Shown here: in pieces, positions 17,881 to 63,149 of the stretch | Layout of the letters: the number at the start of each line of letters is the position of its first letter | Position numbering within the stretch: the stretch's first letter is position 1 | Assembly (NCBI GenBank): GCA_030141605.1 | Contig: JAQGDQ010000235.1 | Coordinates: forward strand, 124,001 to 188,000 | Length of the DNA: 64,000 bases | DNA from: Tubiluchus corallicola | Lineage: Eukaryota > Animalia > Priapulida | Direction: 5' to 3' | Made by a program: the position numbers and the translations under genes | Notes under the pieces: model-generated | Database searches by the model: none | What the model was told of the DNA's origin: nothing | The model's input: the letters and a program-made list of their open reading frames with translations, nothing else

Positions 17881-17956
17881 TCTCCACTTGCTCTGTCATG
17901 TTGACAACAGAAGTAGAAGTGCTGTGTTGTTATCCCTGTGTGCTGTCTGGGCTCAC

Positions 17957-17974: not shown

Positions 17975-17976
17975 TA

Positions 17977-40597: not shown

Positions 40598-40782
40598 ATT
40601 AAAGACGAATAACACACTAACCTTTTTATCACACAATAATTTTTTTAAACAAATTTAAATATTTCTCTTACCGGTGAACTTAGTCGGTTCTTCTGCCATT
40701 TTTTAAATGCCACAAGTGTGAGCAACAGAACTAGCGATGCGTGAGAGCAAAATTGAGTATTAAACTATTAAAAATTAGAGGC

Positions 40783-41173: not shown

Positions 41174-41256
41174 CCCCCACCTCAAATGGCGCATTGTGCC
41201 ATTTCCTAAGTAAAGGGTCAAGGGTCAACTCTATTAAATACTACAAAGTGTTGATC

Positions 41257-44200
41257 TTACAATCCTTCAACAAAACAGAGTTTATGAATTGGACGGGTTA
41301 GAATAGAATTTTTGGTCTGTATATCTGCAGAGCGAACATTGCCATCATCTCTGCAGTGTGTTTTTATGACTCTTCCCAAGGGCCAGTGATTCCTTGGTAC
41401 CTGATCACTGATGACAACGATGTCATTTTCTTTGAGGTTTTCCTTTTTGTGGAACCATTTTGTTCTTGCGTTAACCAAAGGCAAATACTCCTTGTACCAG
41501 CGTGACCAGAAAACGTTGGCCAAATACTGAGTTTGCTTCCATCGTCTTCTGTAATGATCAGTAGGTGAGAACTCTCCTGGAGGTAGGTTAGAATTCGAAC
41601 GAAGCAATAAAATGTGATTTGGCGTAAGAGCTTGCAAGTCACTAGGGTCATCTGATGAAATAGTCAGAGGTCTACTGTTGATGATCGATTCAACTAGGCA
41701 AAACAAAGTAGTTAATCGTTCGTCATCGATTGCTTGTAAATTACTACCTACGAGAATTCGTCTAACTGATCGAATTAAACGTTCAAAGAAGCCACCAAAA
41801 TGACTTGAAGCGGGTGGATTGTACAACCATTGGATGTCTTTTTGCCTCAACTCAATATGTACCTGTTCTTGGTTCCATTCGCTAATCGATTTTCTAAGTT
41901 CCTTGTCAGCAGAGATAAAGTTTGTACCCTGGTCACATCTGATAGTAGTGGGTGTCCTCTTCTGGTTATGAACCTATGTAGTGCTTGTATCATGGAGTCT
42001 GTATCCATCGTATATAGTACTTCAAGATGAACAGCTCTGGATGTTGCACATGCGAAGATGCAACCATATCTTTTGATTCTGGTGCGTCCTCTATTAACCC
42101 AAAAATGACCAAAACAGTCGATGCCTACAGTTTCAAATGCATAAGAGCTGCCAACTCTATCAGGGGTAAGTCGGCCTATTTTTTCCCCATTTGACGAGCA
42201 AATAGGCGCCGGCAGATTCTGCAGTCTCGAAGAACCTTCTTTGTCAGATTCCTGACTCCAATTATCCAGTACTTTGTCCTAGTTAAAGCAATAACATGCT
42301 CTCTACCGACATGTGCATTAGTTTCATGAAAGTCACGAACTATTAAAGTTGACAGATGAGATTCGCTTGGAAGGATGATAGGATACTTTGTTTCTTCCTC
42401 AATGGTGGCATGTTTCAGGCGTCCATATATGTGGAGTAAGCCATCTTGGAAAATCTGGGGATTCAGCTTTATCAGCTTGCTTGATTTTGTAATCTGGCTA
42501 CCAGTTTTAAGAGACTTCAGTTCTTGAGAAAAATATTCGTGTTGCACGTGCTTTATGAGTGCCTTTTCTGCATCCTGTAGCTCGTCAACAGAAATACTTG
42601 TACTATACTGACGAGAAGTATGTGGTGTTTTATTTCTCAATATCTCTTTCACTCGTAGCAACCAGGCTGCAGCTTTCTTTAACTTGTAGAGACTGCTGTA
42701 GTGATTTATCAGCTTATTCACTGGTTCGTGATTTGTTGAGACAGCTGCATACGTTAGAATCTTGGATTCCTTCTTAAGTTCTGGATCTAAACTTAAGTCT
42801 GGCACTGCTATGATCGGATGCGACCATGTGGACTTGTCGTTTCTTAAAAAGTCGTGACCATTTATCCATCTTTTATCAGAAGCGAGTTTCTTTGCTGACA
42901 TGCCTCTAGATACATCGTTAGCAGGATTGACGTCTCCAGGTACATAATTCAATGGATCTGGATCTGTCAGTCGTCGAATGGTTGCCACCCTATTGGCAAC
43001 AAATGTCTTATAACGAGTTGCCTCATTACTTATGTAGCCTAAAACTGCCATGCTGTCAACCCAAAAACACGATTTTAACAGTGGAACTGTTAGCTCTCTT
43101 CTAAGCATGAAATCCACTTTTGCTGCAAGAACAGCCGCAGCAAGTTCAAGACGGGGGATTGTCACAGTTTTTATGGGAGCTAAGCGAGATTTGCTTAAGA
43201 CCAAAGTACAATTAATATCTCTGGATGTGTTTGTGACACGCAGGTATGAGGCTGTCCCGTATGCCTTTTCTGAACTATCGGAAAAATGATGCAGCTGGTA
43301 ATTAACTACATTTCCAAAGTCTGCAGGGATGTAGCATCTTGGAACACTCAAAGTCTTAAGATAATGTAGATTCTCTAGCCAAGCTTGCCATTTGGCCTTA
43401 ATGTGGTCAGAAAGATCATCATCCCAATCTTTTTTAGACGTGTTTCTTCTTGAAACAGAAGCTTGGCATTCAAGATGCATGGGCTGGTTATACCCAATGG
43501 GTCATAGGTCGAAGCTGTGACACTCAAAAGCCTACGTCGGGTCATAGGTCTGTCCTTCTTCTTGACTTGAATATTAAAAGTATCTGATTCCAGGTCCCAC
43601 ATTATCCCAAGGACCCTGTCCACAGGAAGAGTAGCTGGATTTCTTTGACATGATTGCTGCGATCTTTGGGTGCTACAGAAGATATTACTTCCCGATTGTT
43701 GCTGGACCATTTTGTCAAGTGAAAGCCTCCTTGGCGAAGTAATTCAGAAAGGTCCTTGATCAGAGAGGTAGCATCTGCTACAGTTTGTGTGGTTGCCAGA
43801 AGATCAACAACATAAAAGTTCCTTAAAACTGTCTGAATGACTATGTCCTCATAGTCATTGCTGTTGTCTTCTGCTGTCTTCCGCAATACAAAGGATGCAA
43901 TGCTAGGGCACCACATGCCTCCAAATATGTGCACTGTCATCTGGTAGATTTGTGGTTCTAAATCCACGTTCCCATCAGGCCACCAAATAAATCGTAAAAC
44001 GTCTCTGTCATCTGGATGCACTTGAACTTGGTACAACATCTTCTCGATGTCTGCTGCAATTGCAATAGGCTTTTCACGAAACCTGACCAACACCCCAACA
44101 AGGTTGTTAGTTAGGTCAGAGCTTTGTAAAACATTTTTATTGAGAGTTGTTCCACGAAAAATAACTGCACAGTCGAACACCACTCTGGTCTTATCTGGTT

Positions 44201-46408
44201 TGCTTTCACTTTTGACAGCAAAATGTGGGATGTACCATACTTTACCGGGCACAGGCTCATGATCCTTAGGAATGAGTTCTGCATGTCCGTTTCGTAGCAA
44301 CGTTGCAATTTCATTTGCATATTTATTATGAAAAGTGCTGTCCTGCCTGAATCTTTTTGCTAAACTTTCTAATCGGGACAGAGCAATGACTTTGTTATCC
44401 CCTAGTTGAGGATTTTTGTCTCTGAACGGTATTCTTATCTGGTAATGCCCATCTGGAGTTACAACAGCTGAATTTTTCCAAATTTTAATAGCTTTCGCAT
44501 CCTCTACAGACATGCCGACAGTTTCATTTTGACATTCTTCCAACTGCCAAAATTTTTGAATCACTTCCTGCAGCCCTTCCATATGAGCATAATGACTTAA
44601 GGCAATCTTAGTTTCTCCTGAACATAGCGGACCATTCAAAGTCCATCCAAGTTTAGTACGTGTCGCCCAAGGTGCATATTTTGGACCTGTCTTAATCTCC
44701 AGTGGCATGAGTGCTTCAGGTATGTCTTGACCAATTAAAAGACCTACATCTAAGTTGCTGCAATTGCCATTTAGGCAATGGAAATCAAGCCATTGAATGT
44801 GCGGCCATTCTTTTAGATGGTCTTGCGTTGGCATATTCTCCATATCGCACATCAAGGAAGGTCTGGTGAAGACGAAGACAGATCAATAAAATCTTGATTG
44901 TCAATATGCGAGACTTTGAGCTTGACAACAGTAGTCTTATTTTCACTCATCTTCCTTTCCAGAGTTGTTAGACGTAAAACAACACTCCTTCCCTGAGCAC
45001 CTAGTCTTAGGCGCAATGACTCTGAACAAAATGTATTCGTTGAACCATTGTCCAGTAAAGCTAGAGTCCTAGTTGGTACACCGCCTGGTACCTTTACTTG
45101 GACTGGTAGTATAGGCAAAGCTGTTCTTGCATTTGGCTTTTGTTGCTTTACATATCCACTTTGAGAGTTTGGCTTTGGTGATGCATCTCTATCTTCCTTT
45201 GCGTTGTTCTCAATTCTGGGAGATTTGTTACGCTTTCCATATGCTTCTTTAATCTGTGAAACATCTCTGTTTGGTATGGCGCTTGCTGTATCTTCCCTCT
45301 TCAGGTGCAAAAAATTGGTGTGCCTTTCATGTCAAACCTCACATCTTTTCTCAGACCTGCAATTTCTGCTGATGTGGCTGTGCTTCAAGCAGTTGAAGCA
45401 AAGCTTATTTTGAGTAATAAACTCGCGACGTTCTTGAACAGATAACTTCTTGAAAGCAGGACATTTAATTAGTAGATGTTCTCCTGAGCAGGAAATGCAT
45501 TTTAAAATTTGAAACCTCTTGTCATTGCTCTTAGGATCATCTGCAGCTTGCGGTTGTTGTGTGTTTGTGTTAGCAAAGGGCTTTGTGCTTTTCTTGCTTT
45601 CTTTTCTGTCTACAGGCTTCTTGCGATATGTTGGGTCATTCTCTATTTTTGCCTGAAGTTCAATGAAACTCACAACATCTTCAATCCTGGGATCTCTGCC
45701 TGAAGTTCGTATTTTATAGACTTCCTTTCTCCATGAAGCATGAATTCCAGGCGGTAATTTGTCAACAATCTGAGATAGGTTTCATTGCGTGTTTATCTCA
45801 GATATGTGTCCAACTGCAGATAAAGCTTCTGAGCAACTTCTTAAAGTATCAGCGTAATCACGAAGCAGCTCTGGTTCGGACGCTTTTATATATTTGAAGC
45901 TTGATATTTCTTTCAACCAGGCCTACGTAATGGAGAATTCATCACCATACCTCTCCTTCAGCATTTCTTTGGCACGCATGTAACCAGTATCTGGGCGCAT
46001 ATTCATGCAACAGTCCATATATTTTCGCACCTTTTCGCTTCAAAATTGCAGGAGAAGTGAAAGTCTCGCAACACTATCTGTCGTGTTATTCTCTACAGTT
46101 GATTCAAAACGTCTAATGAATCTAGCATACTGGAGTTCTGAACCGTCAAATGTTTCGAGTTGGATGCTAGGAAATGGAAAACCGCTAAAGGCGCTATAGG
46201 TAGGCATACCTGTATTCATTGCAGGGGTATATTCAAGCTGTAGAGGTTGATTGCATGGGTTGGATGCATAGATGGTTGCTTGGTTACCTGGTTGCTTAAG
46301 GTTGCTGACACTGATTGGTTGGTTGCCAAAATGCCGATCTTGTACACGTGGCTGCTGAAAGAAATCTGTTTCGCTTTCACTAATATTAGGCTGGCTTGTG
46401 CGCAAAAG
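41257..46408 (-). pseudogene. BEL-2 gag (capsid region, Zn knuckles) and pol (PR, RT, RNase H, IN), disrupted
   Basis: PSIQLETFDGSELQY; CISCSGEH...CFNCLKHSH...C..HTNFLH; ALLDNGSTNTF (protease); RVVFDCA, DIEKM, NFYVVDLL (mutated YVDD); HHFSDSSEKAYG; PPASSHFGGFFERLI; HWPLGRV. Confidence 0.94.
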
Positions 46409-47044
46409 CACCCGCCAAATCTTCTCTGTCGCACGTAAAGGGTTGCGGGTTCGCGTCTCGCCGAGTTCACTTTTTTTCGCGCGGATTCGAGCCGAAACTG
46501 GTGGAACTTAATGCTCGGGCCTTCCTTCGTCGCGTACGCACGTTAAAAAAATCGCGCTACTTTTGTGCGAGGTGAAAAATTTTTGCCGCAGCAATGTGCG
46601 AACCCGGGGCCCCTCATTACAGCACGGGCGTGTCAGCAGACGAAGATAATTTATTGAGCATAAGCAATAGTATAAATTTTCGTACGATTAGTAGATGCAT
46701 TGAATACCTGTTTATGCGGAAATTCTCACAGTAATTCATTTTTCACAGTTTGTGCCTTGCAACTCATTCAACGTAATCAGAATGTAATGTTTTAATTCAG
46801 TTAATGTTTGTAATTTTTTGAATGCTTAATTGAACGTGCATAAACTACTTTTCACAAGTTTCTGGTGTTATTCGGCACTTTATATACTGTGTATAATTTA
46901 TTTATTCAGCAAAATCAATTCCAACATACCAAAAGAAAACAAGATTGTAAGGTTATAAGGTTTTATTTTTAAGGCTTTAAACATTTTTATAAATATACTA
47001 CTGATTTCATTATTATTTTATTTTAGTTTTAAAAACATTTATAC

Positions 47045-47257
47045 TTATACATTTTTATGTTTTAGCAAAAAAACTGCACTTCTGGTTAGAATGGAACCAC
47101 AATCACAATATAATATATATATCACAACATTACAGTCAAAATTACATGTTGAAAAGAAGAATACAGTGCAGAAAAAATACAGATATACACGTTTAAGCAA
47201 AAAAACTGCACTAACCATATAATTTAAGGAACACAGTGCAGAAAAAATACAGATATA
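47045..47257. repeat. Left stub of the ~120-bp satellite, cut off by the Gmr1-type insertion
   Basis: Same motifs as 55510-57930: agcaaaaaaactgcacttctggttagaatg and cagtgcagaaaaaatacagatata. Confidence 0.88.
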
Positions 47258-48564
47258 TGTAATGGCCCGTGCATGCAGGGGCAGACCATAGGGGCCAATT
47301 AATGGTAGTTGCTGCTAAGTTCGATCAGTTCCTTGGCCGAGCTAGGGGCACTAACCGACTGCCCACTAAAGAAACAGACAATAGCTGAGCGTAGGCAGAC
47401 TCTACGGGGGCTCTACCTAAATAGCATGGGTTCTTTTGTTGTGGGATTGATTAAAAACAGGCTTCCCATCAATACCTCAAAAACCAAACTGTAACCAGTC
47501 GAATAAATGACAAAATATTAAGTTTAATGACACAAACAAAAACAGTTGTATAATTTAGCTTTTTGTAAACAATGGAAATTAGTAATAAGCAAAAGCTAAT
47601 CTGAAAACGCTACTAAACAGCATGGCATGAAATAAATGCAATGACTAAACACACAAAAATCATACAGTGTTCCTAACTATTTAAAGGGTTCCTACTTACT
47701 CTACCAGCCACCCCAAAATGCGTACGCTAGCATAGTATATTCTCCAGACAAGTGTAGTTTGCGGTCAGAGTCCTTTAGAACGACTGAAGTATGGTTCTGA
47801 CTTCATGTAACGGGTTCACGACTCCCACAGTAACGACTCAAAAATCTGAGAGAAACGTAGCTAAATGTTTCAACGTAAGTCTAACAAAAGGGTGACGTGT
47901 GAACGGAGCTGTAGGCATACATGCGCTCGGAAATTCACATCAAAAACAAGTTCTCCCTCTGGCGCCAATTAACGATAACGTAAGTAAACAGGTACCTTTG
48001 CCTTCCGGTTTATTGGCATACAGTTCCTACCCGGGCAGTGACGACTTCTCCGTCCCATGCGACGGACTATCGAGCTGGGCACCTTTCCAACTGCACGACG
48101 GTGCTCTCACATGATCCGAAACGACATCTTCCCGGCATGGTAAGATCAGCAAAGCCAGGTAAACCAATGAGTGGACATCTTTCACCACCACAAATAGATC
48201 ATTAGCTTTTCAAACGTCAGCTAATGGACAATCAGGTAAAACGCAAAAACGCAGTTTAACCAACCAAAGTCAAGTTGCATATCCTGTCCGAGAAATCTGT
48301 GTCATGAACGTACAGAAATCCATGTGTTTGGCTTCAATCCGCTTAAATACACCAACGTACAGTTACACGTTTAACCCAACCCAGGGGGGGGCTAACATTC
48401 CCTAAACTAACAAATAGTATTACCTAGTTGATTATAACAATCTAGAAACAATTTACACTTAGTGAACATAAGTAAGGAAAAGCTGGTGTCAAAATCAGAA
48501 AATAAAGCTTAATGTTTATCTGCAAGTTAAAGTACGGCTCTATGATTTAACCTGGGTCCTTACA
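47258..48564 (-). repeat. Gmr1-type element 3' LTR
   Basis: tgtaatggcc...ggtccttaca, near-identical to 54202-55509. Confidence 0.97.
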
Positions 48565-48863
48565 ATGGCCCCCTCTCAAACGAGTGCTGAAATACCGATA
48601 TTTGGCTTGCAAAATAGTAAGGGTTTCAGCACTACAAGAAGTTTTGGGTAAAGATCAACAAATATATTTACTATAACAGAACCAAAATAAGTCGGTTTCG
48701 ACTTGTTCAATATCAAGAACAAAAAAGGGTACTCCCAAACAAAAGCTTAGGTATTTACGCAGTACTCCGCTGTGTTTCGAACATGTCAAAATATGCATGT
48801 TGTACTTGTCATGTAAAATGTTGATCGTGTTTTAGCAAAAATATATAACTGTGCCATATATGA

Positions 48864-51800
48864 TTATATGCGTGATAATGTGTCAGCAGGCACATTCTTT
48901 CTGCCAGGTAGGTGTTCCACAGTGAGAGAATAGTTTTGCAGAATGAGTGCCCACCTTGAGATTCTCCGATTGGAGTGCCTCATTTTGTGCAAATGTTGCA
49001 AAGGGGAGTGGTCACAGCGTATTATGAATTTACGCCCTTCGAGATAGTAGTTCCACTTCTCGACAGCATGGACAATACTTAAGAGCTCCAGCTCAATAGC
49101 TGAGTAGTTCTTCTCAGCAGACGTAAGCTTACGGCTGAGGTAGGTGATCGGAACTTCATTGCCTGGTTCCTGTTCCTTACTCAAGATAGCACCCAAACCC
49201 CGAATTGACGCGTCAGTAGTTACGATGAAAGGTAAACTAAAATTCGGACTATGGAGTACACTATCTGAGGTAAGAAAGTCACGCAGGGTAACAAAGCTCT
49301 GTTCATGATCAGCAGACCATGTGACTGTAGATGGTTGGGTCTTTTGAGTTAGCTCAAAGAGTGGTAGAGCAATTTGGCTAAAATGGGGGATGAATCTACG
49401 GTAAAACCCCACTAAGCCCAAGAAGGCTCTTACTTGAGTGTTCGTCTCTGGACGAGGAAAGTTTTGTATTGTCTGAATCTTTTCTGCTTGAGGACGTAAA
49501 CGATTACGCCCCACCACATAGCCTAAGAACTCTGTTTCTCGTTGGGCGAGGAAACATTTCTTTGGCTTAATAGTAAGTTGTGCTGCTCTTAAAATACAAA
49601 AGACCGTTTCAAGGTGCCGGAGGTGGTCATCCCAATTGTTCGACTTGACACATATGTCATCGGTAAAACCTCTTGCATGCTGGTTGATATCTTCTAAAAG
49701 GATGTCGATAAGTTGTTGAGATGTTTGGGCTGCATTCTGTAATCCGAAAGGCATAGCCTTGAATTCCCATTTCCCAAAGTCTGTTATGAAGGCAGAAATT
49801 GGCCTGGATTCTTGGGCGAGAGGAATTTGCCAATATGCCTTAGTCATATCAATGTGGGAAATCCATTCTGAACAGTGCAATTCATCGACCATCTCATCAA
49901 CCCTAGGCATTGCGTACTGGACAAAAAGTGTCTTGCGATTCACAGCACGATAGTCGATGCAAAAGCGAATGGTTTGGTCCTGCTTAGGTACTAAAATGGC
50001 AGGAGAAGCATAGGGTGAGTCGGATTTCTGAATTACATCGAGCTTCTCCATCTCGATAATCTCTTTTCGGACAATTTCTTTCCGAGATTGAGGGATGCGA
50101 TACGCTCGCTGATGCACTGGAGTACAATCTGAGAGAATGATATGGTGCTCTGTTACATGGGTTCGGCCTGGGATGTCTGAGAAAATGTCAGCATGCTTTT
50201 GTAGAAGCTGACTAAGTTGGCAAGATTGTTGTTTGGTTAGGTGCTCTGGTATCTCCACATCGGTGGCGAATTGAGTTTGTATCGCTGGGGGTAAGAAAGC
50301 AACTTCAGGGAGTTGAGCTGCCTGCATAGGGGTAGGAGCCAATTCTTCCTCATCATAACTTGGAGACAGGTCATCTACCCCTGGGAATGCCAGATCTGAC
50401 TGTTGGCATTTGGAAAACAGAGCTACGCTCTCTGATCGTTTCACCAAAGGCTTTAATAAGTTTATGTGAAACGTCCTTGTATGTACTTTTACACCAGGTT
50501 TGGAAATCTGAACTTTATAACTATGATCTGACAACTTGTCAACCACTTGGTAGGGGCCCTGCCAGATTCGATTTAGTTTTTTCTTGGAAGATGGTAATAA
50601 AACTAACACCTCTTGTCCGATTTCCAATGAGCGAGCAGATGATACTTTGTCGTACCATCTTTTTTGGGCTAGTTTGGCCTGGTTTAAGGCCTGGTGAGCT
50701 TCCTCAGTGGATTGCTCTAATTCATTGATGACCCTATCAACATAGTCATCAACATTGTAATATGATGGAGGGTCTGTACAACCCCATCTTCTTCGCAGGG
50801 CTGACATTGGGCCTCGAACTGGGAAGCCATATACTAGTTCGAATGGGCTATACTTTAAAGAAGCTTGGGGTATCTCTCTATAGGCAAAGAGTACAAACGG
50901 GATTAATTCATCCCATTCAAAGATACATTGAGTTTGTAGCAACTTCCTTATGGAACTCTTGAGTGAGTCATTAAATTTTTCCGTGACACCCTGTGTCATC
51001 GGATGGTAAGGTGTTGCAAACATTCCTTTAATACCTAAAGCATCTTCAAGCTTCATGATGAGAGTCGAAGTGAATTGAGCACCACGATCTGATAATATTT
51101 CTTTGGGTATGCCATGCCTACAAATAAATTGGAGGAGAGCCTGTGCAACACATTCTGCTGACTCTGATTTGAGGGGGTAGGCATCCGGATATCGGGTTGC
51201 TTGATCGACGATGACCAAAGCATACTTATGACCAGAGCGTGTTCTCGGTAAAGGGCCAATTAGGTCTATGCAGATCTGCGCAAATGGCTCCTTTACTATT
51301 GGCAAAGGCTTGAGTGGGGCTCTGTCGGCAGTCCTACGTTTAGATGCTCTTTGACAGGCTAAACATGACTTGACATATGCCTTAATGTCACTCAAGACTT
51401 TGGGCCAATAATATTGGGATAAGACCCGATCAATGGTCTTGCGCATCCCTTGATGTGCAGCTGGCAGTTTGTCATGGGCAAGCTCGAGCACTTGCTGACG
51501 ACGGACTGAGGGTACTACTAGAAGGTCAGTGTGGCCTCCTCTTGCATTACGGCGCACTGTGTGAAGTACTCCTTGCTTTAAGAAGTAGCCAACCTTTTGG
51601 GCTTTGCATTCAGCTTCTGCTTGCACATGGTCAAATAAGTTGCGCAAAGTAACATCATTTTTCTGTTCACTTATTAAGTGTTCTCTTTGCACCAATTCTG
51701 CAAGGTTCTGTTGTTTCCTAGCCTGTTTCTCATTTAAGACAGGTAGGGGTGTATCAGAACTAGCTTGGTGCTGTATTTCTGCATCATGTTTTTCTTGTTC

Positions 51801-53789
51801 AGTTAGAGCCCTTGCCTTAGCTCTCGTTACTATCGGGAATGCAACAAATTTTGTAGCGTCTGCATCAGCAACAGGCTGAGGTTCCCAACTGGGTTGAGGG
51901 GCAGACATGCTCTTTTGCTCAGTAGACTGAACTACCTGAGAGTACAACTTGGGTGTCTCCCGACCTTCACCCGAAGTCAATGGTTGGTTTCTGAGTGTGG
52001 GAGCTTTCCCAGGTTGCTTGGGTTGTTGCTTGTTTGTCCCACTAGATTTGTCTTTCTTTGACAAAAATGGAGAGATTTCAGTTTCAAAGTCATTCCCCAA
52101 CAATAGTGGAACTGGACAATCAACCGCGACTGTGACTGTCAGATAACCTGTAGCGTAAGGCGATTCTATTTCAACAATAGCAACGGGACAAGATTTGTCA
52201 CAGTTATGTATGCAAGACAGTTGGTTGGACAAACCTTTCACGTATTGTTCAGGGCGGACATGGTCTGGGTGGACAACAGACTTTGAGGCTCCAGTGTCTC
52301 GCAACCCGATGACGTCTTTTCCATTCAAGACGGCTCGAAAACATGGTTGACCAGACACACACTCTTCGGTTCCGGCTCCAGCAGTGACTAAAGCCGACAT
52401 ATCTGGAGCACAAGGGACCAAAAGTTGTTTGTATGACGGTTTGTCTCTCACACTAAGTGCTAATCTAGGCCTTTCAGTGGGAGAGGCCTTCTTTCTTGGG
52501 CAAGAGGAAGAATAATGGCCCTGCTGGCCGCAATGGTAACATTGCACTCGGGCTAGTGCGGTTCCTCCCTTGTGTGTTGCAGGTTTTACGTCAGGTTTAC
52601 GGTTTGCTGATGATGAAGAGAATTTAATAGAGGTTGCTCTGGGATTCTGAGCTGAAATATAAGCGTCAGCTTTTTGAGCAGCTTCGTCAAGTTTGTAGAT
52701 GCCATTTTTCTTCAGCCACAAAGCGACCTCTGCAGGGATTATTGTCATGAAATGCTCATAGGCTATTAAATCTACGGCCTGATCTTTACTGGTGACCGAC
52801 ATAGCATCTGCCCAGTCCCGTAGGCTCTGCCTGAGACGTACCACTGTCTGCGTACACGTCTCATCTTTGCGTTTAGAAAGGTCCCTAAACGCTATGCGGT
52901 AACTCTCAGGAGTCACCATATAAGCTGCAAGAATGGCTTCCCTGACTTTGGTATAAGAACGAATATCATCCCCTTCAATAAGTTGGAATGCATAACTAGC
53001 CTTACCCGAGAGGTGAGGGGCAAGAGAACAACACCACTGTGACCTCGGTATATCATTCACTTGGCAACAACGCTCATAATAAGTCAAGTACTCCAGGATC
53101 GACTCACCTTGACCTTCCTTAAAAGGTCGCACTTTGAGTTTAATATACTGTGTGGATTCAGTAGATGTAGAGTTTGCATTTGCGTTTGATGTATTTAATG
53201 AAAGACGTGCTCTTTGCAACTCTCTGTCATGTCTTTTGCTTTCTTGCATTGCTTCCCACTCTCTCTCCATCCTCCTTTCTTCACGCTCCCGTTGACGTTC
53301 CTTTATCTCTAATTCACGCACCTGCCATTCTCTGTCTCTCGCTAACTCTCTCTCTCTCGCTCTGGACTCCTCCAGTTGTAAAATTAATTTGACTTTATCA
53401 TCTGGGGGCAACCCCGTTAAATCATACGTGCCTGTCTCATTACTAGTAGTTATTTGTGTGCTAGGATCGCTAAGCTGTTTTGCTGGTGTTTGGTGCAAGG
53501 TAAGCTGTGGCGGACTCGAGTCGGGGGAGGGCGGCGCTAACCTCGTAGCTTGTGTTTTCTCGACTGTCTGTTGTACTGCTGACAACAGTGTAGTGACGGG
53601 CGAAACCATTACTTGTTGGGTTTCCGATGGTAGTGGGCGCTGGGCCTGAATTTCTAATATTGTGTCAATAAGAACTACCCGCCTATTAGACAAAGAGATC
53701 ATACCCAATGATCTAGCTATTTCTCGAAGCTTGGACATTGGCAATGTGTCCAACTGTTCTTTTGTATAAACATTATCCTCGTCTTCCAT
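48864..53789 (-). CDS. Gag-Pol polyprotein, 1641 aa, order Gag-PR-IN-RT-RH
   Basis: CYHCGQQGHYSSSC knuckle; LRDTGA protease; AHD..AAHQG...CLAC, IDLIGP, SDRG and TEKFN integrase; RFCIDYR, DMTKAYWQI, MPFGL and FTDD RT; TDAS, YSAIELE and CDH RNase H. Confidence 0.96.
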   Translation of the reverse strand: MEDEDNVYTKEQLDTLPMSKLREIARSLGMISLSNRRVVLIDTILEIQAQRPLPSETQQVMVSPVTTLLSAVQQTVEKTQATRLAPPSPDSSPPQLTLHQTPAKQLSDPSTQITTSNETGTYDLTGLPPDDKVKLILQLEESRARERELARDREWQVRELEIKERQREREERRMEREWEAMQESKRHDRELQRARLSLNTSNANANSTSTESTQYIKLKVRPFKEGQGESILEYLTYYERCCQVNDIPRSQWCCSLAPHLSGKASYAFQLIEGDDIRSYTKVREAILAAYMVTPESYRIAFRDLSKRKDETCTQTVVRLRQSLRDWADAMSVTSKDQAVDLIAYEHFMTIIPAEVALWLKKNGIYKLDEAAQKADAYISAQNPRATSIKFSSSSANRKPDVKPATHKGGTALARVQCYHCGQQGHYSSSCPRKKASPTERPRLALSVRDKPSYKQLLVPCAPDMSALVTAGAGTEECVSGQPCFRAVLNGKDVIGLRDTGASKSVVHPDHVRPEQYVKGLSNQLSCIHNCDKSCPVAIVEIESPYATGYLTVTVAVDCPVPLLLGNDFETEISPFLSKKDKSSGTNKQQPKQPGKAPTLRNQPLTSGEGRETPKLYSQVVQSTEQKSMSAPQPSWEPQPVADADATKFVAFPIVTRAKARALTEQEKHDAEIQHQASSDTPLPVLNEKQARKQQNLAELVQREHLISEQKNDVTLRNLFDHVQAEAECKAQKVGYFLKQGVLHTVRRNARGGHTDLLVVPSVRRQQVLELAHDKLPAAHQGMRKTIDRVLSQYYWPKVLSDIKAYVKSCLACQRASKRRTADRAPLKPLPIVKEPFAQICIDLIGPLPRTRSGHKYALVIVDQATRYPDAYPLKSESAECVAQALLQFICRHGIPKEILSDRGAQFTSTLIMKLEDALGIKGMFATPYHPMTQGVTEKFNDSLKSSIRKLLQTQCIFEWDELIPFVLFAYREIPQASLKYSPFELVYGFPVRGPMSALRRRWGCTDPPSYYNVDDYVDRVINELEQSTEEAHQALNQAKLAQKRWYDKVSSARSLEIGQEVLVLLPSSKKKLNRIWQGPYQVVDKLSDHSYKVQISKPGVKVHTRTFHINLLKPLVKRSESVALFSKCQQSDLAFPGVDDLSPSYDEEELAPTPMQAAQLPEVAFLPPAIQTQFATDVEIPEHLTKQQSCQLSQLLQKHADIFSDIPGRTHVTEHHIILSDCTPVHQRAYRIPQSRKEIVRKEIIEMEKLDVIQKSDSPYASPAILVPKQDQTIRFCIDYRAVNRKTLFVQYAMPRVDEMVDELHCSEWISHIDMTKAYWQIPLAQESRPISAFITDFGKWEFKAMPFGLQNAAQTSQQLIDILLEDINQHARGFTDDICVKSNNWDDHLRHLETVFCILRAAQLTIKPKKCFLAQRETEFLGYVVGRNRLRPQAEKIQTIQNFPRPETNTQVRAFLGLVGFYRRFIPHFSQIALPLFELTQKTQPSTVTWSADHEQSFVTLRDFLTSDSVLHSPNFSLPFIVTTDASIRGLGAILSKEQEPGNEVPITYLSRKLTSAEKNYSAIELELLSIVHAVEKWNYYLEGRKFIIRCDHSPLQHLHKMRHSNRRISRWALILQNYSLTVEHLPGRKNVPADTLSRI

Positions 53790-54181
53790 GTTTATTAATG
53801 TAGTATTATAATACTGTAAGTGTGAATAAATTTATTATTCGACTTTTGCCAAGCAGTATCAACTGTGCGAATTCTTTAAATTGTGTAATTCGCCACAGCG
53901 AATTCTGCGCAAAACTCGGCTTCAATAACTGCAACAAGATTTTGCTATGGAAGCCACGAGAACAAAGTACACTAAAGCGCAGCAAAAAATTCGTATTACT
54001 GCACAAAGTTATAACAACTAAACCTGTTATACGTTCAACGCAATGTTAGAGAAATGAAATATCAGTGACCTAGTTTCTCGCACCTACTTTCTTGTGCGAG
54101 TGCTAAATTTCTTCCCAAGGTCTTTGTATTAAACTTAAATTTTTGAAATAAACGCACAGAGTAGCAAACCTGATTAAATCA

Positions 54182-54199
54182 ATCCCACCGCTGCCACCA
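54182..54199 (-). promoter_or_regulatory. Primer binding site, tRNA-Leu
   Basis: Minus strand TGGTGGCAGCGGTGGGAT lies 2 nt from the 5' LTR and is complementary to the tRNA-Leu 3' end ATCCCACCGCTGCCACCA. Confidence 0.9.
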
Positions 54200-54201
54200 T
54201 C

Positions 54202-55509
54202 TGTAATGGCCCGTGCATGCAGGGGCAGACCATAGGGGCCAATTAATGGTAGTCGCTGCTAAGTTCGATCAGTTCCTTGGCCGAGCTAGGGGCACTAACC
54301 GACTGCCCACTAAAGAAACAGACAATAGCTGAGCGTAGGCAGACTCTACGGGGGCTCTACCTAAATAGCATGGGTTCTTTTGTTGTGGGATTGATTAAAA
54401 ACAGGCTTCCCATCAATACCTCAAAAACCAAACTGTAACCAGTCGAATAAATGACAAAATATTAAGTTTAATGACACAAACAAAAACAGTTGTATAATTG
54501 AGCTTTTTGTAAACAATGGAAATTAGTAATAAGCAAAAGCTAATCTGAAAACGCTACTAAACAGCATGGCATGAAATAAATGCAATGACTAAACACACAA
54601 AAATCATACAGTGTTCCTAACTATTTAAAGGGTTCCTACTTACTCTACCAGCCACCCCAAAATGCGTACGCTAGCATAATATCTTCTCCAGACAAGTGTA
54701 GTTTGCGGTCAGAGTCCTTTAGAACGACTGAAGTATGGTTCTGACTTCATGTAACGGGTTCACGACTCCCACAGTAACGACTCAAAAATCTGAGAGAAAC
54801 GTAGCTAAATGTTTCAACGTAAGTCTAACAAAAGGGTGACGTGTGAACGGAGCTGTAGGCATACATGCGCTCGGAAATTCACATCAAAAACAAGTTCTCC
54901 CTCTGGCGCCAATTAACGATAACGTAAGTAAACAGGTACCTTTGCCTTCCGGTTTATTGGCATACAGTTCCTACCCGGGCAGTGACGACTTCTCCGTCCC
55001 ATGCGACGGACTATCGAGCTGGGCACCTTTCCAACTGCACGACGGTGCTCTCACATGATCCGAAACGACATCTTCCCGGCATGGTAAGATCAGCAAAGCC
55101 AGGTAAACCAATGAGTGGACATCTTTCACCACCACAAATAGATCATTAGCTTTTCAAACGTCAGCTAATGGACAATCAGGTAAAACGCAAAAACGCAGTT
55201 TAACCAACCAAAGTCAAGTTGCATATCCTGTCCGAGAAATCTGTGTCATGAACGTACAGAAATCCATGTGTTTGGCTTCAATCCGCTTAAATACACCAAC
55301 GTACAGTTACACGTTTAACCCAACCCAGGGGGGGGGCTAACATTCCCTAAACTAACAAATAGTATTACCTAGTTGATTATAACAATCTAGAAACAATTTA
55401 CACTTAGTGAACATAAGTAAGGAAAAGCTGGTGTCAAAATCAGAAAATAAAGCTTAATGTTTATCTGCAAGTTAAAGTACGGCTCTATGATTTAACCTGG
55501 GTCCTTACA
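54202..55509 (-). repeat. Gmr1-type element 5' LTR
   Basis: Direct repeat of 47258-48564, followed by the TSD atata. Confidence 0.97.
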
Positions 55510-57930
55510 ATATACATGTTTAAGCAAAAAAACTGCACTTCTGGTTAGAATGAAACCACAATCACAATATAAATGAAAACCACAAATTACAGAAACATTA
55601 CAGTCAAAATACAGTGCAGAAAAAATACAGATATACATGTTTAAGCAAAAAAACTGCACTTCTGGTTAAAATGAAACCACAATCACAATATAAATGAAAA
55701 CCACAAATTACAGTCAAAATACAGTGCAGAAAAACAGATATACATGTTTAAGCAAAAAACTGCAATTCTGGTTAGAATGAAACCACAATCACAATATAAA
55801 TGAAAACCACAAATTACAGAAACATTACAGTCAAAATACAGTGCAGAAAAAATACAGATATACATGTTTAAGCAAAAAACTGCACTTCTGGTTAGAATGA
55901 AACCACAATCACAATATAAATGAAAACCACAAATTACAGAAACATTACAGTCAAAATACAGTGCAGAAAAAATACAGATATACATGTTTAAGCAAAAAAA
56001 CTGCACTTCTGGTTAGAATGAAACCACAATCACAATATAAATGAAAACCACAAATTACAGTCAAAATACAGTGCAGAAAAATACAGATATACATGTTTAA
56101 GCAAAAACTGCAATTCTGGTTAGAATGAAACCACAATCACAATATAAATGAAAACCACAAATTACAGAAACATTACAGTCACAATACAGTGCAGAAAAAA
56201 TACAGATATACATGTTTAAGCAAAATACTGCAATTCTGGTTAGAATGAAACCACAATCACAATATAAATGAAAACCTCAAATTACAGAAACATTACAGTC
56301 AAAATACAGTGCAGAAAAATACAGATATACATGTTTAAGCAAGAAAACTGCACTTCTGGTTAGAATGAAACCACAATCACAATATAAATGAAAACCACAA
56401 ATTACAGAAACATTACAGTCAAAATACAGTGCAGAAAAATACAGATATACATGTTTAAGCAAAAAAACTGCACTTCTGGTTAGAATGAAACCACAATCAC
56501 AATATAAATGAAAACCACAAATTACAGAAACATTACAGTCAAAATACAGTGCAGAAAAATACAGATATACATGTTTAAGCAAAAAAACTGTACTTCTGGT
56601 TAGAATGAAACCACAATCACAATATAAATGAAAACCACAAATTACAGTCAAAATACAGTGCAGAAAATACAGATATACATGTTTAAGCAAAAACTGCAAT
56701 TCTGGTTAGAATGAAACCACAATCACAATATAAATGAAAACCACAAATTACAGAAACATTACAGTCACAATACAGTGCAGAAAAAATACAGATATACATG
56801 TTTAAGCAAAATACTGCAATTCTGGTTAGAATGAAACCACAATCACAATATAAATGAAAACCTCAAATTACAGAAACATTACAGTCAAAATACAGTGCAG
56901 AAAAATACAGATATACATGTTTAAGCAAGAAAACTGCACTTCTGGTTAGAATGAAACCACAATCACAATATAAATGAAAACCACAAATTACAGAAACATT
57001 ACAGTCTCAAAATACAGTGCAGAAAAATACAGATATACATGTTTAAGCAAAAAAACTGCACTTCTGGTTAGAATGAAACCACAGTCACAATATAAATGAA
57101 AACCACAAATTACAGAAACATTACAGTCAAAATACAGTGCAGAAAAATACAGATATACATGTTTAAGCAAAAAAACTGCACTTCTGGTTAGAATGAAACC
57201 ACTATCACAATATAAATGAGAACCACAAATTACAGTCAAAATACAGTGCAGAAAAATACAGATATACATGTTTAAGCAAAAACTGCAATTCTGGTTAGAA
57301 TGAAACCACAATCACAATATAAATGAAAACCACAAATTACAGAAACATTACAGTCACAATACAGTGCAGAAAAAATACAGATATACATGTTTAAGCAAAA
57401 TACTGCAATTCTGGTTAGAATGAAACCACAATCACAATATAAATGAAAACCTCAAATTACAGAAACATTACAGTCAAAATACAGTGCAGAAAAATACAGA
57501 TATACATGTTTAAGCAAAAAAAACTGCACTTCTGGTTAGAATGAAACCACAATCACAATATAAATGAAAACCACAAATTACAGAAACATTACAGTCTCAA
57601 AATACAGTGCAGAAAAAATACAGATATACATGTTTAAGCAAAAAAACTGCACTTCTGGTTAGAATGAAACCACTATCACAATATAAATGAGAACCACAAA
57701 TTACAGAAACATTACAGTCAAAATACAGTGCAGAAAAAATACAGATATACATGTTTAAGCAAAAAACTGCACTTCTGGTTAGAATGAAACCACAATCACA
57801 ATATAAATGAAAACCACAATTACAATCAAAATACAGTGCAGAAAAATACAGATATACATGTTTAAGCAAAAACAAACTGTACTAACCATATAATTTAAAG
57901 AATACAGTGCAGAAAAAATACAGATATACA
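55510..57930. repeat. ~120-bp (and ~109-bp variant) tandem satellite, ~20 units, with 5-mer higher-order structure
   Basis: Unit atatacatgtttaagcaaaaaaactgcacttctggttagaatgaaaccacaatcacaatataaatgaaaaccacaaattacag[aaacattacag]tcaaaatacagtgcagaaaaaatacag. Confidence 0.97.
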
Positions 57931-58099
57931 AGTTATACAGTTCACAGCATGGCAGAACTGCATGGATGGCAAGGGAATCAAAATGAGTTATAGTTAGTAG
58001 TGTTTGGTAGGGGCAGAAAAAATATTTAAAAAACCCCAAAAAAACTGTGCACAGCAAAAAATAAAATAATACAAAATATAAAAATACAATACAAAGTTT

Positions 58100-59190
58100 A
58101 CAACTGAACTCCAGCTCCGACCGTTTGGCTGCAATGAGTTTATGCACGTCTTGGTCATCCCACTCGAATATGGGTGCTGAGATTTGCCTCATGAATTGTG
58201 CATACAGTGGATGAGACTTGAGAGGACAGGATGCTATTCTTCTAATGAAGTGGTAGATATCTAGCCGAACAATCAGGTTCTTCCACAAGTGAAACATGGC
58301 ATGTGTCTTACTCCTTGTTCCTGTCGATGAACAGCAATCCCTGTCCACGTACATCAGATGTGGCGGATCTTGGTTCGCCTCGCTGTAACGTCTCATCAGT
58401 CCAGCAGCCATCTCCGTCAATCCAGCACCTTCTGCACACGTGGCAACAGATATGTTAGTAGTGCAGGAAACTGCGAACGATGGCCTACATCGATTTGCTG
58501 TAGTATTCCTGGGCACCATGCTGCAACTTTGGTATGGCACACTCTACATTCCAGATAGTCAGTAGCAAGAAGAAAGATGCCATCCACATCGACTACTTGG
58601 CGAACTGTCTTGTAATATCCACAAAGAGCCATTTGTCCTACGCAGTCAGGTTTTACACACTGCAGTCTCATTTTCAAGAAACGAAGTGGCATCCAAAGAA
58701 ATAATGGTCTTGCAAAAAGCAGAGCCGTGGATGCTGGTGGCTGATTATGAATCATTGGAGGTTGCGGTGGATGAACCCACATCTGGATGTTCGGCTTCTA
58801 CTGCCGCTTACCACCAGGTCCAATGATGAAAACAGCCTTAGAGATCCAGGCCTATTCCCTCTTTGGTATGGCTTCTTTCCAAGCTGAAGGCAAGAGACTC
58901 TATAGAGAAATAAAACCAGTGTTAAAATTATATAAACACTATATTCAACATAGTCATACTATAGTCAGTTTCTAAAGTGCAGTTTCTAAAAATTACAGTT
59001 TCTAAAAATTAGTAAGAACACATGAGGTACAAAAAAATTAGAAAAAAATTAGAACTAACCTGAGGACCAGCTGGCCTTAGCTGACTCGTGCTTGGCTTAC
59101 TCACGACAACTGGCTCAACTGGGGGTGGTACATGTTGTAGTTGACCACGTTGTGCTATGTCGTCTAGCACAACACGCACAGTACGTGCTA
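58100..59190 (-). pseudogene. Truncated, intron-containing transposase-like gene (Cys-rich domain plus YVDxDCC / DIYH core; DUF6729-like)
   Basis: LFARPLFLWMP...LQCVKPDC...GYYKTVRQVVDVDG...YLECRVC...QFPALLTY, then after a frame break EGAGLTEMAAGLMRRY...PPHLMYVDRDCC...VRLDIYHFIRR...HPLYAQFM. Probable GT-AG intron at about 58900-59059. The 3' exons are missing. Confidence 0.7.
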
Positions 59191-59817
59191 TAAAAAATAT
59201 AGTATTTAGTATACATAATTACAACACCTTCACACAAGTGCACACGAGTTATGTTAGTGGCTCATCAATTTCTATCTCCCAAACTGACTCTCTGGTACTA
59301 CTAGGCTAGCTCAACATGACTTCAATGTTTGCATTGTTTTTGCTCTATTATTTCACTTTTTCACTATTATAACACACTGCTGAACGACCCTCGAGTGCTA
59401 ACTGAGCCGTTTTGTTAACGTATTAACAGTCAGAATAATTTAACTCGGCGACAAACTTTAATAATAAAAAATATTATTGGGCTACTGTACCGAAGCGCTC
59501 ATACTGTTCGCATTTATGGAGCGCTGGCCCGCTATTGCGTGTCAAAAAGTCGGAAATAAATTTGCTTACCGTTTGCTGTCGAGTTCTCATGTTTCTCTCT
59601 CGAAAAAATGGTAAAAATTTCACACAAAGTGTAAATAATTTGTCACAAACGCATTTCAAATGTGGCGGTGTGGCGAATCTACGGCGCGTGCGTAAAATTT
59701 GCGTCAGCGCCATCTATTTGAAGAAATTCAAACGAATTCCCATTTTGTCCCAATTTGTCTCAATTGTCTCAATTTCACATTGAAAATTGGTGTCCGGGAG
59801 GCGCAAAGGTCTGTATT

Positions 59818-60489
59818 TCATTGAAATATTTCCAGTGGCGTAAAGACATCTCTTAACTTGTCATAATGGTGTTGCCAAGGCTTCTCTTTCCCAAGGAAAT
59901 GTACAACTTTTATTTCATCCCTACAAGCTTCAAATGCAGGTAGATATGTGTAGCACGTAGATGCCAAAACATTATAAGTAAAGAGGAGACGATCCCAGTC
60001 TTTAAAAAAGCTGTTCAACAAGCCCTGATCTCCTCCTTCAAAGCTTGGGAATGTTCTGGCAAAGGTTAATAGACTGTTATAAGTGTCAAGACTTGGTCTG
60101 ATGACCATAACACCACTGTTGAAATGGTCAGGCCAACCAATATCAAGAGGTTCTTCTTTTTCAAAGTCAATATTTCGCAGGACAATCGTGTCTGCATCCA
60201 TGAAAATGCATTTAGAGTAACGTGTCAAAGCCCAACAATGAAGCTTGGTGTATGTTGCTCTCAACTCGGGACGTCCTGCATATAGCGCCTCTAAACCGTC
60301 GCAGATTTGTTCTTCAACAAGCTCAACGTCATCAAAAATTGTCTGCATTTGTATCATAATCTTCGACGAGAGCTGCGCTCTTACCATGACAACTATGCTA
60401 TGCTTAGTATTTGTTTTTCACAAAGAATGAGCTAAGACCATAGCGCTTTGAGCATAAAAGTCATTAGTTGCAAGGGTTACCTAAGCTTC
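59818..60489 (-). pseudogene. GYG: Glycogenin (GT8) catalytic domain embedded in BEL-2 gag; intronless, two premature stops
   Basis: EA*VTLATNDFYAQSAMVLAHSL*KTNT...RPELRATYTKLHCWALTRYSKCIFMDADTIVL...GWPDHFNSGV...SFEGGDQGLLNSFF...YTYLPAF...KVVHFLGKEKPW is collinear with animal glycogenin-1. Confidence 0.93.
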
Positions 60490-61027
60490 ATTTGGGGTTT
60501 CCAAGTTATCCTTTGTCTGCTGTGCCTTTACCCATGAAGTGTTTCGTCTTATTTTATTTTCAGAGCTTGCTTCGCAAATTGAGCGCTCACTAGCTTCATT
60601 ATTAGAGTACACTGCAGCTTCGGCATTTCCTACTTTGAGCCTCGTCTCCAGATCTACGCGCTCTTGTTGCTGCTTTAATCGTTGTTGCTGCAGTTCCATT
60701 TCTTTTTGTTTTTGTTCAAGCTCTTGCTTTGTACTAAGGCATCCCTTTCTACCAGCAAAGCAGCTTTTCTAGCTTCTGCTGCTACTCTTTTTGATAATAC
60801 AGAAGAAATAGCTGATGCTTTGGATGATCCTTTATTTACTTTATAGTTTGTCTCTTATGCGCATCTTCTTCATGGATGGCCGAAGGGCCGGGCTCAATAG
60901 GTAAAAACCCAGTAATGCTCTCCTTTAATCTATCAATAAGTTCGGCTTTTGACCCAGATACCTTTAACCCTCTCTCTTTCAACTTTTTTCTCAACTGCTC
61001 AACAGTGTAATTTTCTATATCAGACAT
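60490..61027 (-). pseudogene. BEL-2 Gag N-terminus: SAP domain plus Ser-rich/coiled-coil region (frameshifted)
   Basis: MSDIENYTVEQLRKKLKERGLKVSGSKAELIDRL fits the SAP consensus. SSKASAISSVLSKRVAAEARKAALL...QELEQKQKEMELQQQRLKQQQERVDLETRL is typical of BEL Gag N-termini. Confidence 0.85.
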
Positions 61028-61507: not shown

Positions 61508-61898
61508 TGTTGTTACAGCAAAACACGAGAGTTCCTTTCATTTTGTGTTCACTGCCGTCTTTATTTTCTAAAGTGGAAAACAAAACAATACATAAAATCT
61601 GCAGAATGCAATTTGAACAAAAAACACAGAAGTTCAACAAAAAAATTACACAGAAAATTGCTATGTATTAAATATACAAAAAACACTCACTTCGTACGGC
61701 CAAACAGCACACACCGTTTATGGCTGAAGCATAAAACCAATTCCTTACATCTAAATTGCACTATCGACATTACAACACATTGCATTATTCACAAAACCAG
61801 ACAACGCTGCTCGCAATTCCCACCCGTCCCCTTCAGTTTTTAGCTCCCTCGTGCGGGAAAAAGAAAAAACAAATTATATAGGCAATTTGCCCATAACA
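61508..61898 (-). repeat. BEL-2 5' LTR
   Basis: tgttgttaca...cccataaca, followed by the TSD gaggc. Confidence 0.96.
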
Positions 61899-63149
61899 GA
61901 GGCATACAGCTATAGTTACAATAAAAGAAAATCTGCTTTTTAAAAACATAGCCAAACTGTTAAATTAAAAACAATTGAAATTAGAAAGTATAAAGAAACG
62001 TATCTTATTTACATCTATGTTTGGCTGAGAATTGAAAAAAATAGAAAACAAAAAGAGGGAGAGGGAAATAACTGCATCTCAAAATTTAAATTAGGCATTC
62101 TATTTCTTTGCATCCAATGCTAAGCAGCTGTTTAACATCATCTGTCTTACGCTGAGTTTAGAAGTGAAATATCTGCTCAGAAAAACTAACTTCTCCCAGC
62201 TCTTTCTCTATCTAATTTTAAAGGCGTATAAAACTCCCTTAAGCATTTCCATAACATGCACGACAGATGCTTTTTCTTGACGATGTTTCGTGAAAATTTA
62301 ATAAATCGAGATCAGACTTATTTATATATTACAAAGGCAAATTTCAGTCTCTTTACATTCTATTAAAAGGGTGTTATGAAAAAAGGCACAAATCTGTGAA
62401 TGCTGGGAATGGCTTTTCTAGCAGTCAGCCATCCATTTATTGACTAAGTCTAGCATTATTTACTTTGTTTTCTAAGTACACATGCTGTGAACTCTCAAAC
62501 TGTTTCCGTACTTGCCTTTTGCAGCATAAATGTAGTGGCGTCACTATTACAAAGACCCGCAAAACTTTAATTACTTATGCAGTTATTGCAGTATAACTAT
62601 AACAGTGAACAATTTTCTGATTTTTGCTTGCTTTAAGTAAAATTAAATAAAGAAGTGACTTGAACATTATTATTATTAGTGTTTGTGGTCACTATACTGA
62701 AGTTTTAAAATAATTGACATTAAAATTAAAAATAACAGACCGTGTACACTATTTTGGCAAATACATGAAAATTTTAAACGTTTGAATATAATTAATTGGT
62801 TCGTTTTTACACTATCTGCACAAAGGTATGGCAATAAAAAGGTACCAGGAACATAAATTAATATGCATGCCATGACTGACTTGTGAGACCTATTTACGAT
62901 AAAAGTTTGTGTTTAGTCTGCAAGTACTTTATTTTAATAGCTATGATCTGTGTGTTGTTTGGTAGTTTAAATTTAACTTATTAACTTCAGTTCCATATTT
63001 TATATAAAGCTTTATTGAAGCATATGCTTCATGATTATAATCTTTGCAATTTTTGTAATTAATGAGGATAATAATATGAATGAATTACTCATATTTTCTA
63101 ACTACGGTACTACCTGCATTAGGATTGTTTTTTGTGGAAATGGTGCAAA

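What the first reader, a model, noticed from the sequence alone, without database searches (positions are those of the whole stretch)
59818..61027. BEL/Pao retrotransposon with a glycogenin (self-glucosylating GT8) domain built into Gag
Seen in sequence: the glycogenin homology lies between the two TSD-matched LTRs, on the gag-pol strand. It has no introns, poly(A) or TSD of its own. It is in the same frame as the upstream Gag coiled coil (ORFs starting at 60699 and 60387 differ by 312 nt). Only two stops interrupt it, each one transition from the expected codon: TAG at 60481-3 (TGG gives EAWVTL) and TGA at 60418-20 (CGA gives HSLRK). After excising 46409-59800, one extra A near 59828 joins it to the capsid-side Gag (ENISMKYRPLRTSQP...PSIQLETFDG). 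The capture spans the catalytic domain, from the first beta strand to KPW..YD, and omits the C-terminal glycogen-synthase-binding tail. Established knowledge: the DAD motif, TKL lysine, GGDQG, the acceptor-Tyr region (YTYLPAF) and VHFLG are the functional glycogenin motifs, and all are kept. Inference: the active ancestor encoded SAP-coil-glycogenin-CA-NC-PR-RT-RH-IN. It might glucosylate its own particles or tie them to glycogen stores, for example in oocytes. I know of no described glycosyltransferase-bearing BEL Gag.
Basis: partly seen in the sequence, partly recalled or inferred. Interest (0 to 1): 0.93.

Follow-up and report, generated by a model that had tools for sequence, protein, structure and literature searches.

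The report
Retrotransposon Gag with captured glycogenin domain
An animal BEL/Pao retrotransposon carries the catalytic domain of glycogenin, the enzyme that starts glycogen, inside its capsid-forming gag gene in more than one sequence variant; the active ancestor likely used it to put short sugar chains on its own particles, an arrangement I found in none of the papers or protein records searched.

Summary
Core observation confirmed; junction details corrected. A glycogenin catalytic domain (about 50% identical to animal glycogenins; D102/D104, K86, Y195, H212 kept; synthase-binding tail absent) lies between the Gag coiled coil and capsid of a decayed 7.7-kb BEL/Pao element with 96.7% identical LTRs. 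It is not a misassembly, nor a quirk of this one sequence: contigs from two samples join the domain directly to the capsid side without the nested insert, at a length that fits one frame, and read sense codons where the window has stops. The domain keeps 69 of 78 conserved columns but matches its nearest host protein at only 19 of 82 variable ones, and has the longest branch in the tree, so selection in the element is likely; the host's own gene was not seen. No intact copy, RNA or activity was seen; separate loci are inferred. No such fusion appeared in four protein searches or ten paper searches. Best mechanism: Gag self-glucosylation decorating particles (0.42).

The parts
61508..61898 (-). 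5' LTR, 391 nt, TG...CA
   Evidence: 378 of 391 identical to the 3' LTR
61899..61903 (.). 5-bp target-site duplication, 5' side
   Evidence: same 5-mer as 40778-40782
60836..61027 (-). Gag start with SAP domain
   Evidence: PF02037 E 7.3e-15; no hit among 120 BEL relatives
60700..60833 (-). Gag linker, in a different frame in this copy
   Evidence: matches 6 of 120 BEL Gags at E<=0.01; other copies differ by small indels at both frame changes
60484..60726 (-). Gag coiled coil, same frame as the GT8 domain
   Evidence: matches 31 of 120 BEL Gags at E<=0.01; frame
59835..60483 (-). Captured glycogenin (GT8) catalytic domain; stops at 60481-3 and 60418-20
   Evidence: model pLDDT 83, Foldseek TMq about 0.8 to glycogenin
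59809..59834 (-). Piece resembling glycogenin's last catalytic-domain helix, cut off by a deletion at 59834/59835
46401..59808 (.). Later nested insert (DUF6729 element holding a SCAN-Gypsy element); not part of the BEL element
   Evidence: contigs in all 4 runs skip it; contents
45332..46400 (-). Gag linker, capsid and two CCHC knuckles; 4 stops in this copy
   Evidence: capsid piece hits 96 of 120 BEL relatives; motifs and stops
44855..45331 (-). Aspartic protease (LDNGS)
   Evidence: PF13650 E 3e-4, below its cut-off; motif
43605..44882 (-). Reverse transcriptase, catalytic motif altered in this copy
   Evidence: 39-46% identical to 120 BEL polyproteins; translation
41260..43743 (-). RNase H (Peptidase_A17), integrase zinc finger, DUF5641, in several frames
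   Evidence: PF05380 E 2e-36, PF17921 E 7e-8, PF18701 E 4.5e-28
41174..41183 (-). Polypurine tract
   Evidence: G-rich 10-mer directly before the 3' LTR
40783..41173 (-). 3' LTR
40778..40782 (.). 5-bp target-site duplication, 3' side

Best explanation
A BEL/Pao element carries the catalytic domain of an animal-type glycogenin between its Gag coiled coil and capsid; the family likely kept it under selection as a working enzyme that would glucosylate its own tyrosine and so coat Gag particles with short alpha-1,4-glucose chains. Shown: position, domain content, kept catalytic residues, no synthase-binding tail, and uninterrupted variants in two samples. Inferred: capture by template switching onto a spliced glycogenin mRNA; one open SAP-coil-glycogenin-CA-NC frame in the active ancestor; transposition with the domain on board. 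Untested: Gag assembly would bring the domains together as dimers, which would add a short primer chain from cytosolic UDP-glucose. Without the tail they would not recruit glycogen synthase themselves, so the product would be a short sugar tag, not a glycogen granule. The likeliest gain is docking of particles on glycogen or glycogen-binding proteins in germ-line cells, or shielding of the capsid.
For: Domain identity and fold. D102, D104, K86, T83, N133-G135, D163-Q164, Y195, H212 and K218 of human glycogenin-1 are kept (numbering counted on the alignment); Y195 is the acceptor (PMC9188544) and a D102 change abolishes autoglucosylation (PMC5203857, start of abstract). Flanks are ordinary BEL Gag on both sides. 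Two bridging contigs (X2 1120 nt, X4 1580 nt; two samples) run from capsid to GT8 with the same 73-letter spacing, which fits one frame. All 6 stops at covered substitution sites are read as sense in at least one other contig, and 0 of 41 other listed differences make a stop. 69 of 78 conserved columns versus 19 of 82 variable columns match the nearest host protein, Fisher p 1e-17. Nearest-neighbour identity is 0.539, below all 143 host sequences (minimum 0.549), and the branch is the longest of 61 (1.58, median 0.4), whereas LTR decay explains about 1.7% per copy. In X2 and X4 one contig alone covers 59882-60269 at 80% likeness, so no near-identical host exons showed (weak, see against). A 5' variant about 85% identical joins the same GT8 contig at 60371-60400.
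Against: No intact copy was seen: other copies carry indels of 8, 17 and 1 letters that would shift the frame unless compensated among unlisted rows. Differences between copies are not significantly synonymous-biased: 7 of 19 and 12 of 36 against 21-27% expected, p 0.06-0.25. The host's glycogenin was not seen (no genome), so the conservation pattern could come from a fast-evolving host gene, and the read tool may filter out conserved host genes. The domain misses 9 of 78 conserved columns, more than 141 of 143 hosts, including D160. Separate loci are inferred; no contig ties a second GT8 copy to its own flank, and it could be an old allele. No related fusion, so the family is narrow or unsampled. 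Two stops alone do not exclude neutral decay (P about 0.33 in a random-codon simulation). No activity data.
Confidence: 0.42

Rival explanations
1. Selected but not for catalysis: the domain works as a dimerisation or docking module, pairing Gag with itself or with host glycogenin so that particles ride on glycogen granules.
For: Glycogenin is a dimer at the core of the glycogen particle (PMC9188544). The domain misses more conserved columns than 141 of 143 hosts. Unchecked earlier notes report degenerate glycogenin domains fused to other proteins (e1-7469275, e1-7470136).
Against: DxD, H212, K86, D163-Q164 and the acceptor tyrosine are all kept despite about 50% divergence. In the D160 codon, contigs of X1, X3 and X4 read another letter than the window.
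Confidence: 0.2
2. Tolerated passenger: a fairly recent in-frame capture from an unsampled, fast-evolving host glycogenin, carried through a few copying rounds (perhaps complemented in trans) with no benefit to the element.
For: Few variants seen. No synonymous excess between them. No fusion among 120 BEL relatives or the long GT8 proteins listed. The pre-capsid region of BEL Gag varies in length, about 130-440 residues in the rows printed, so it may tolerate inserts.
Against: The capture matches the catalytic-domain boundaries and both junctions fit the frame. No near-identical host exons were laid in X2 or X4 (filter caveat). An 85% variant joins the domain. No GT8-less sibling at the capsid junction in 4 of 4 runs.
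Confidence: 0.3
3. One-off retrocopy into this single dead copy, or an assembly chimera.
For: The window copy is dead and split by a 13.4-kb insert. No contig spans the whole element. The second variant could be an old allele of the same insertion.
Against: Bridging contigs in two samples, plus exact-match contigs across the window's own insert junction in X1 and X3. No poly(A) or TSD around the domain. Other copies lack the window's stops.
Confidence: 0.08

Closest known systems
Belpaoviridae / BEL-Pao LTR retrotransposons (ICTV profile PMC8742986, whole text read; PMC3118150, passages)
   Same: LTR length, genome size without the insert, PPT, gag with CA and NC, PR-RT-RH-IN order; RT 39-46% identical to 120 BEL polyproteins, the named ones from marine invertebrates.
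   Different: SAP and glycogenin domains in the pre-capsid Gag; neither hit among the 120 relatives. The profile names only env as an extra gene.
Glycogenin-1/-2 (GT8, PF01501; PDB 3t7m, 7q0b, 3v8z)
   Same: Catalytic domain, fold and catalytic/acceptor residues; the short loop after GGDQG also occurs in 13 of 279 host-type proteins.
   Different: No linker or C-terminal synthase-binding region of about 34 residues (PMC9188544); embedded in Gag; at most 54-55% identical to any glycogenin found.
Host-domain captures by LTR elements: Copia-MBD (PMC6673714, abstract), orchid Gypsy-AlkB (PMC9289625, abstract and introduction), planarian Burro polyprotein domains (PMC6431247, passages)
   Same: A host domain fixed in an LTR lineage, in Burro within the polyprotein.
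   Different: Those act on nucleic acids, chromatin, apoptosis or ubiquitin; none is a sugar transferase in the passages seen, none is BEL/Pao, and MBD and AlkB were tested for activity.
GT8 proteins of giant viruses and baculovirus p13
   Same: A GT8 fold in a virus (Foldseek BFVD, best E 1e-14).
   Different: Only 9-28% identical, in DNA viruses; the BEL domain is of animal glycogenin type.

Membership tests
Belpaoviridae (BEL/Pao) | LTRs of 0.2-1.2 kb; genome 4.2-10 kb | tested here: met
   391-nt LTRs; 7,708 nt without the insert
Belpaoviridae (BEL/Pao) | Gag with capsid and nucleocapsid | tested here: met
   capsid piece hits 96 of 120 BEL polyproteins; two CCHC knuckles
Belpaoviridae (BEL/Pao) | PR-RT-RH-IN order with Pao-type domains | tested here: met
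Belpaoviridae (BEL/Pao) | Polypurine tract before the 3' LTR | tested here: met
   41174-41183
Belpaoviridae (BEL/Pao) | tRNA-Arg/Gly primer-binding site | tested here: inconclusive
   sequence after the 5' LTR printed but no host tRNA to compare
Belpaoviridae (BEL/Pao) | Working RT and replication through particles | not testable with these tools
   this copy is defective: stops, frame changes, YVVD motif
Glycogenin | GT8 / GT-A catalytic domain | tested here: met
Glycogenin | DxD (D102/D104), H212, K86, D163-Q164 | tested here: met
   alignment; roles other than D102 recalled; D160 reads Glu in this copy
Glycogenin | Acceptor tyrosine (Y195) | tested here: met
   first Y of CYTYLPAF aligns to Y195 (PMC9188544)
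Glycogenin | C-terminal glycogen-synthase-binding region | tested here: not met
   homology ends at the catalytic domain and is followed by Gag sequence; so a glycogenin-derived domain, not a full glycogenin
Glycogenin | Autoglucosylation and dimer formation | not testable with these tools
   no assay; no complex job sent

The most novel reading that the evidence does not exclude
A retroelement lineage whose capsid polyprotein is a self-priming glucosyltransferase: particles glucosylate themselves in the cytosol and use glycogen metabolism to hide from host sensing or to reach glycogen-rich germ cells.
Probability: 0.35. Interest if true: 0.9.

Novelty: new variant of a known kind. Interest (0 to 1): 0.7.

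Why it matters
Fixed extra domains in LTR elements are rare and point to what limits them in the host (PMC9289625). The cases in the papers seen act on nucleic acids, chromatin, apoptosis or ubiquitin. A carbohydrate-priming enzyme inside Gag would link retrotransposon particles to glycogen metabolism, for which I found no precedent in ten searches of the held library. It is also a natural test of what glycogenin's catalytic domain does without its synthase-binding tail. The isolated domain is small and has a standard assay, so the central claim is directly testable.

Tried and rejected
Fusion searches found none. (554-2000 aa; best 120 of 358 listed): no retroelement Pfam domain. (RT query, 747-2130 aa; best 120 of 808): no PF01501. 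(1265-4027 aa; 41 of 41): no retroelement domain. (best 150 of 4013): none hit BEL proteins; across calls, 0 of 279 GT8 proteins hit 120 BEL polyproteins, and 13 long or internal-domain proteins showed only GT families. These lists are cut, and predicted proteins under-sample broken transposons, so the blank is weak. Donor placement: quick tree of 61 rows (60 of the 143 hosts), careful search unfinished; the element is unplaced and long-branched, so no donor is named. A crab paralogue (P0272) shares local motifs but does not group with it. Synonymous-excess test between copies: not significant; the GT8 difference list was cut (11 rows seen). Stop-count argument: uninformative. Depth as copy number: not relied on; run ratios differ. 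No genome held. Paper searches; the 16 papers holding both 'glycogenin' and 'retrotransposon' were seen as listings only and none describes such an element. Subscription journals, Repbase reports and supplements were not seen and may hold a description. PMC5203857 term look-up gave no hits. Earlier scan notes: no match by all words or by sequence. Rejected: GT8 as cargo of the nested insert (contigs lacking the insert keep GT8); a virus-type GT8 origin.

Full report
Anatomy. On the minus strand, two 391-nt LTRs (61508-61898, 40783-41173; 378 of 391 identical; same 5-bp flank) enclose a BEL/Pao element. Pfam finds SAP, GT8, Peptidase_A17, the integrase zinc finger and DUF5641 in order. The RT is 39-46% identical to the 120 best BEL polyproteins listed. 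A 13.4-kb later insert splits Gag; without it the element is 7,708 nt. This copy is dead: three frames before GT8, two stops in GT8, four in capsid-NC and an altered RT motif.

The domain. Read with X at the stops, it matches human glycogenin-1 at E 1e-60 and folds like it (pLDDT 83; Foldseek TMq about 0.8). Counting on the alignment, T83, K86, D102, D104, N133-G135, D163, Q164, Y195, H212 and K218 are kept; D160 reads Glu. Y195 is the autoglucosylation acceptor, and a C-terminal region of about 34 residues binds glycogen synthase (PMC9188544, Introduction and passages). That region is absent here. The short loop after GGDQG is a natural variant, seen in 13 of 279 host-type proteins. The pieces upstream match the pre-capsid region of ordinary BEL Gags (6 and 31 of 120), and the piece downstream matches their capsid (96 of 120). 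The domain therefore sits inside Gag, between coil and capsid.

Other copies. No genome is held, so contigs of four public DNA runs were laid (two samples, two studies; X1, X3 and X4 share a sample that may be the window's source). In 4 of 4 runs a contig leaves the window at 46400 and continues with letters matching 59809-59834. One contig in X2 (1120 nt) and one in X4 (1580 nt) appear in both calls, matched by length and depth, and span capsid to GT8. Both hold 73 letters between the matched pieces; the window keeps 26. The count fits the GT8 frame running into the capsid frame. So the window copy has a deletion at 59834/59835, not one extra base. The spacing from KPW to the piece at 59834-59809 comes to about 28 residues, against a mode of 26 in hosts (169 of 263), so the capture probably covers the whole catalytic domain. 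X1 and X3 also hold exact-match contigs across the window's insert junction, so that sample has both an interrupted and an uninterrupted version. All six stops are read as sense in at least one other contig, and 0 of 41 other listed differences make a stop. Small indels at the two upstream frame changes have lengths that fit one frame in X1 and X3; X2 shows only one of them.

How many copies. X2 holds the window's 5' flank and shares some lesions (one capsid stop, the gap near 60149), so it is likely an allele from before the nested insert. The variant in X1, X3 and X4 lacks those lesions and differs at 19 further capsid-side sites. It is likely a sister insertion: 36 differences over about 1,150 nt match the 3.3% LTR distance, and other LTR flanks occur (5 contigs in X1, 3 in X3). 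An old allele is not excluded. A 5' variant about 85% identical in SAP and coil joins the GT8 contig at 60371-60400, and a deletion variant skips 60696-61228. No GT8-less capsid junction was seen (loose-end table complete). No intact copy was seen either: other contigs carry indels of 8, 17 and 1 letters. Tables 3, 4, 7 and 8 were cut by the tool.

Selection. Against 143 host-type domains the element matches the nearest at 69 of 78 conserved but 19 of 82 variable columns (p 1e-17). That shows purifying selection somewhere on its path. Its nearest-neighbour identity (0.539) is below every host's (minimum 0.549), and its branch is the longest of 61 (1.58; median 0.4; quick tree, unplaced). Decay since insertion is about 1.7%. 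In X2, which assembled the flank, and in X4, a single contig covers 59882-60269 at 80% likeness, so no near-identical host exons showed; the tool may filter such genes. Against: the host gene was not seen; differences between copies show no significant synonymous excess (7 of 19; 12 of 36; p 0.06-0.25), as expected for young decayed sisters but no proof of function; and the domain misses 9 conserved columns, more than 141 of 143 hosts. I put selection within the element at about 0.65.

Mechanism. Capture by template switching onto spliced mRNA is inferred from the intronless, tail-less, in-frame insert. Glycogenin adds 8-12 alpha-1,4-glucoses to its own tyrosine, works as a dimer and recruits synthase through its tail (PMC9188544). 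In a Gag lattice the domains would be crowded together and could self-glucosylate, giving short chains without synthase recruitment. Docking on glycogen or shielding is my inference, with no data. Odds: active enzyme 0.42, non-catalytic docking 0.2, tolerated passenger 0.3, one-off or artefact 0.08.

Comparison. It meets the testable Belpaoviridae features (PMC8742986, whole text). It is a glycogenin-derived domain, not a full glycogenin. Host-domain capture by LTR elements is known (Copia-MBD, PMC6673714, abstract; Gypsy-AlkB, PMC9289625, abstract and introduction; Burro, PMC6431247, passages), so the kind is known. A glycosyltransferase in Gag was found in none of four protein searches or ten paper searches. 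These cover only open-licence papers and cut hit lists. Viral GT8s are distant (9-28%). Earlier scan notes on glycogenin-like domains fused to PKS or RNase III are unchecked leads that the domain is a mobile module.

Verdict. A real and previously unreported-looking domain capture, better supported than one window suggests, with function unproven. New variant of a known kind; interest 0.70.

Noticed in passing
window 46401-59808: Nested element with DUF6729 ORFs (57779-58797, minus) and a 120-bp tandem array (about 55500-57930). The near-repeat at its ends is absent from uninterrupted contigs, and an X4 contig shows a head-to-tail end junction; its ends reach very high depth.
   Followed up: partly
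window 47255-55511: Very young SCAN-bearing Gypsy element with integrase before RT, LTRs 99.5% identical, one open frame of 1655 codons at 48864-53831.
   Followed up: no
window 38185-40368: Open hAT-type ORF of 727 codons (DUF4371 and dimerisation domain) just beyond the 3' LTR.
   Followed up: no
window 12614-18423: Second, distantly related decayed BEL/Pao element; none of its seven ORF pieces scanned hit GT8.
   Followed up: partly
window 60842-61027: The SAP domain at the Gag N-terminus hit 0 of 120 BEL relatives, so it may be a second acquired domain; many relatives may be N-truncated.
   Followed up: partly
window 60696-61228: Contigs in X1, X2 and X3 skip this stretch, a deletion derivative lacking the Gag start.
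   Followed up: no
window 61047-61330: The 5' leader has donor- and acceptor-like motifs (GTGAGT; pyrimidine run then AG) that may mark a leader intron (by eye).
   Followed up: no
window 1-807: 39-bp tandem array with open frames on both strands.
   Followed up: no
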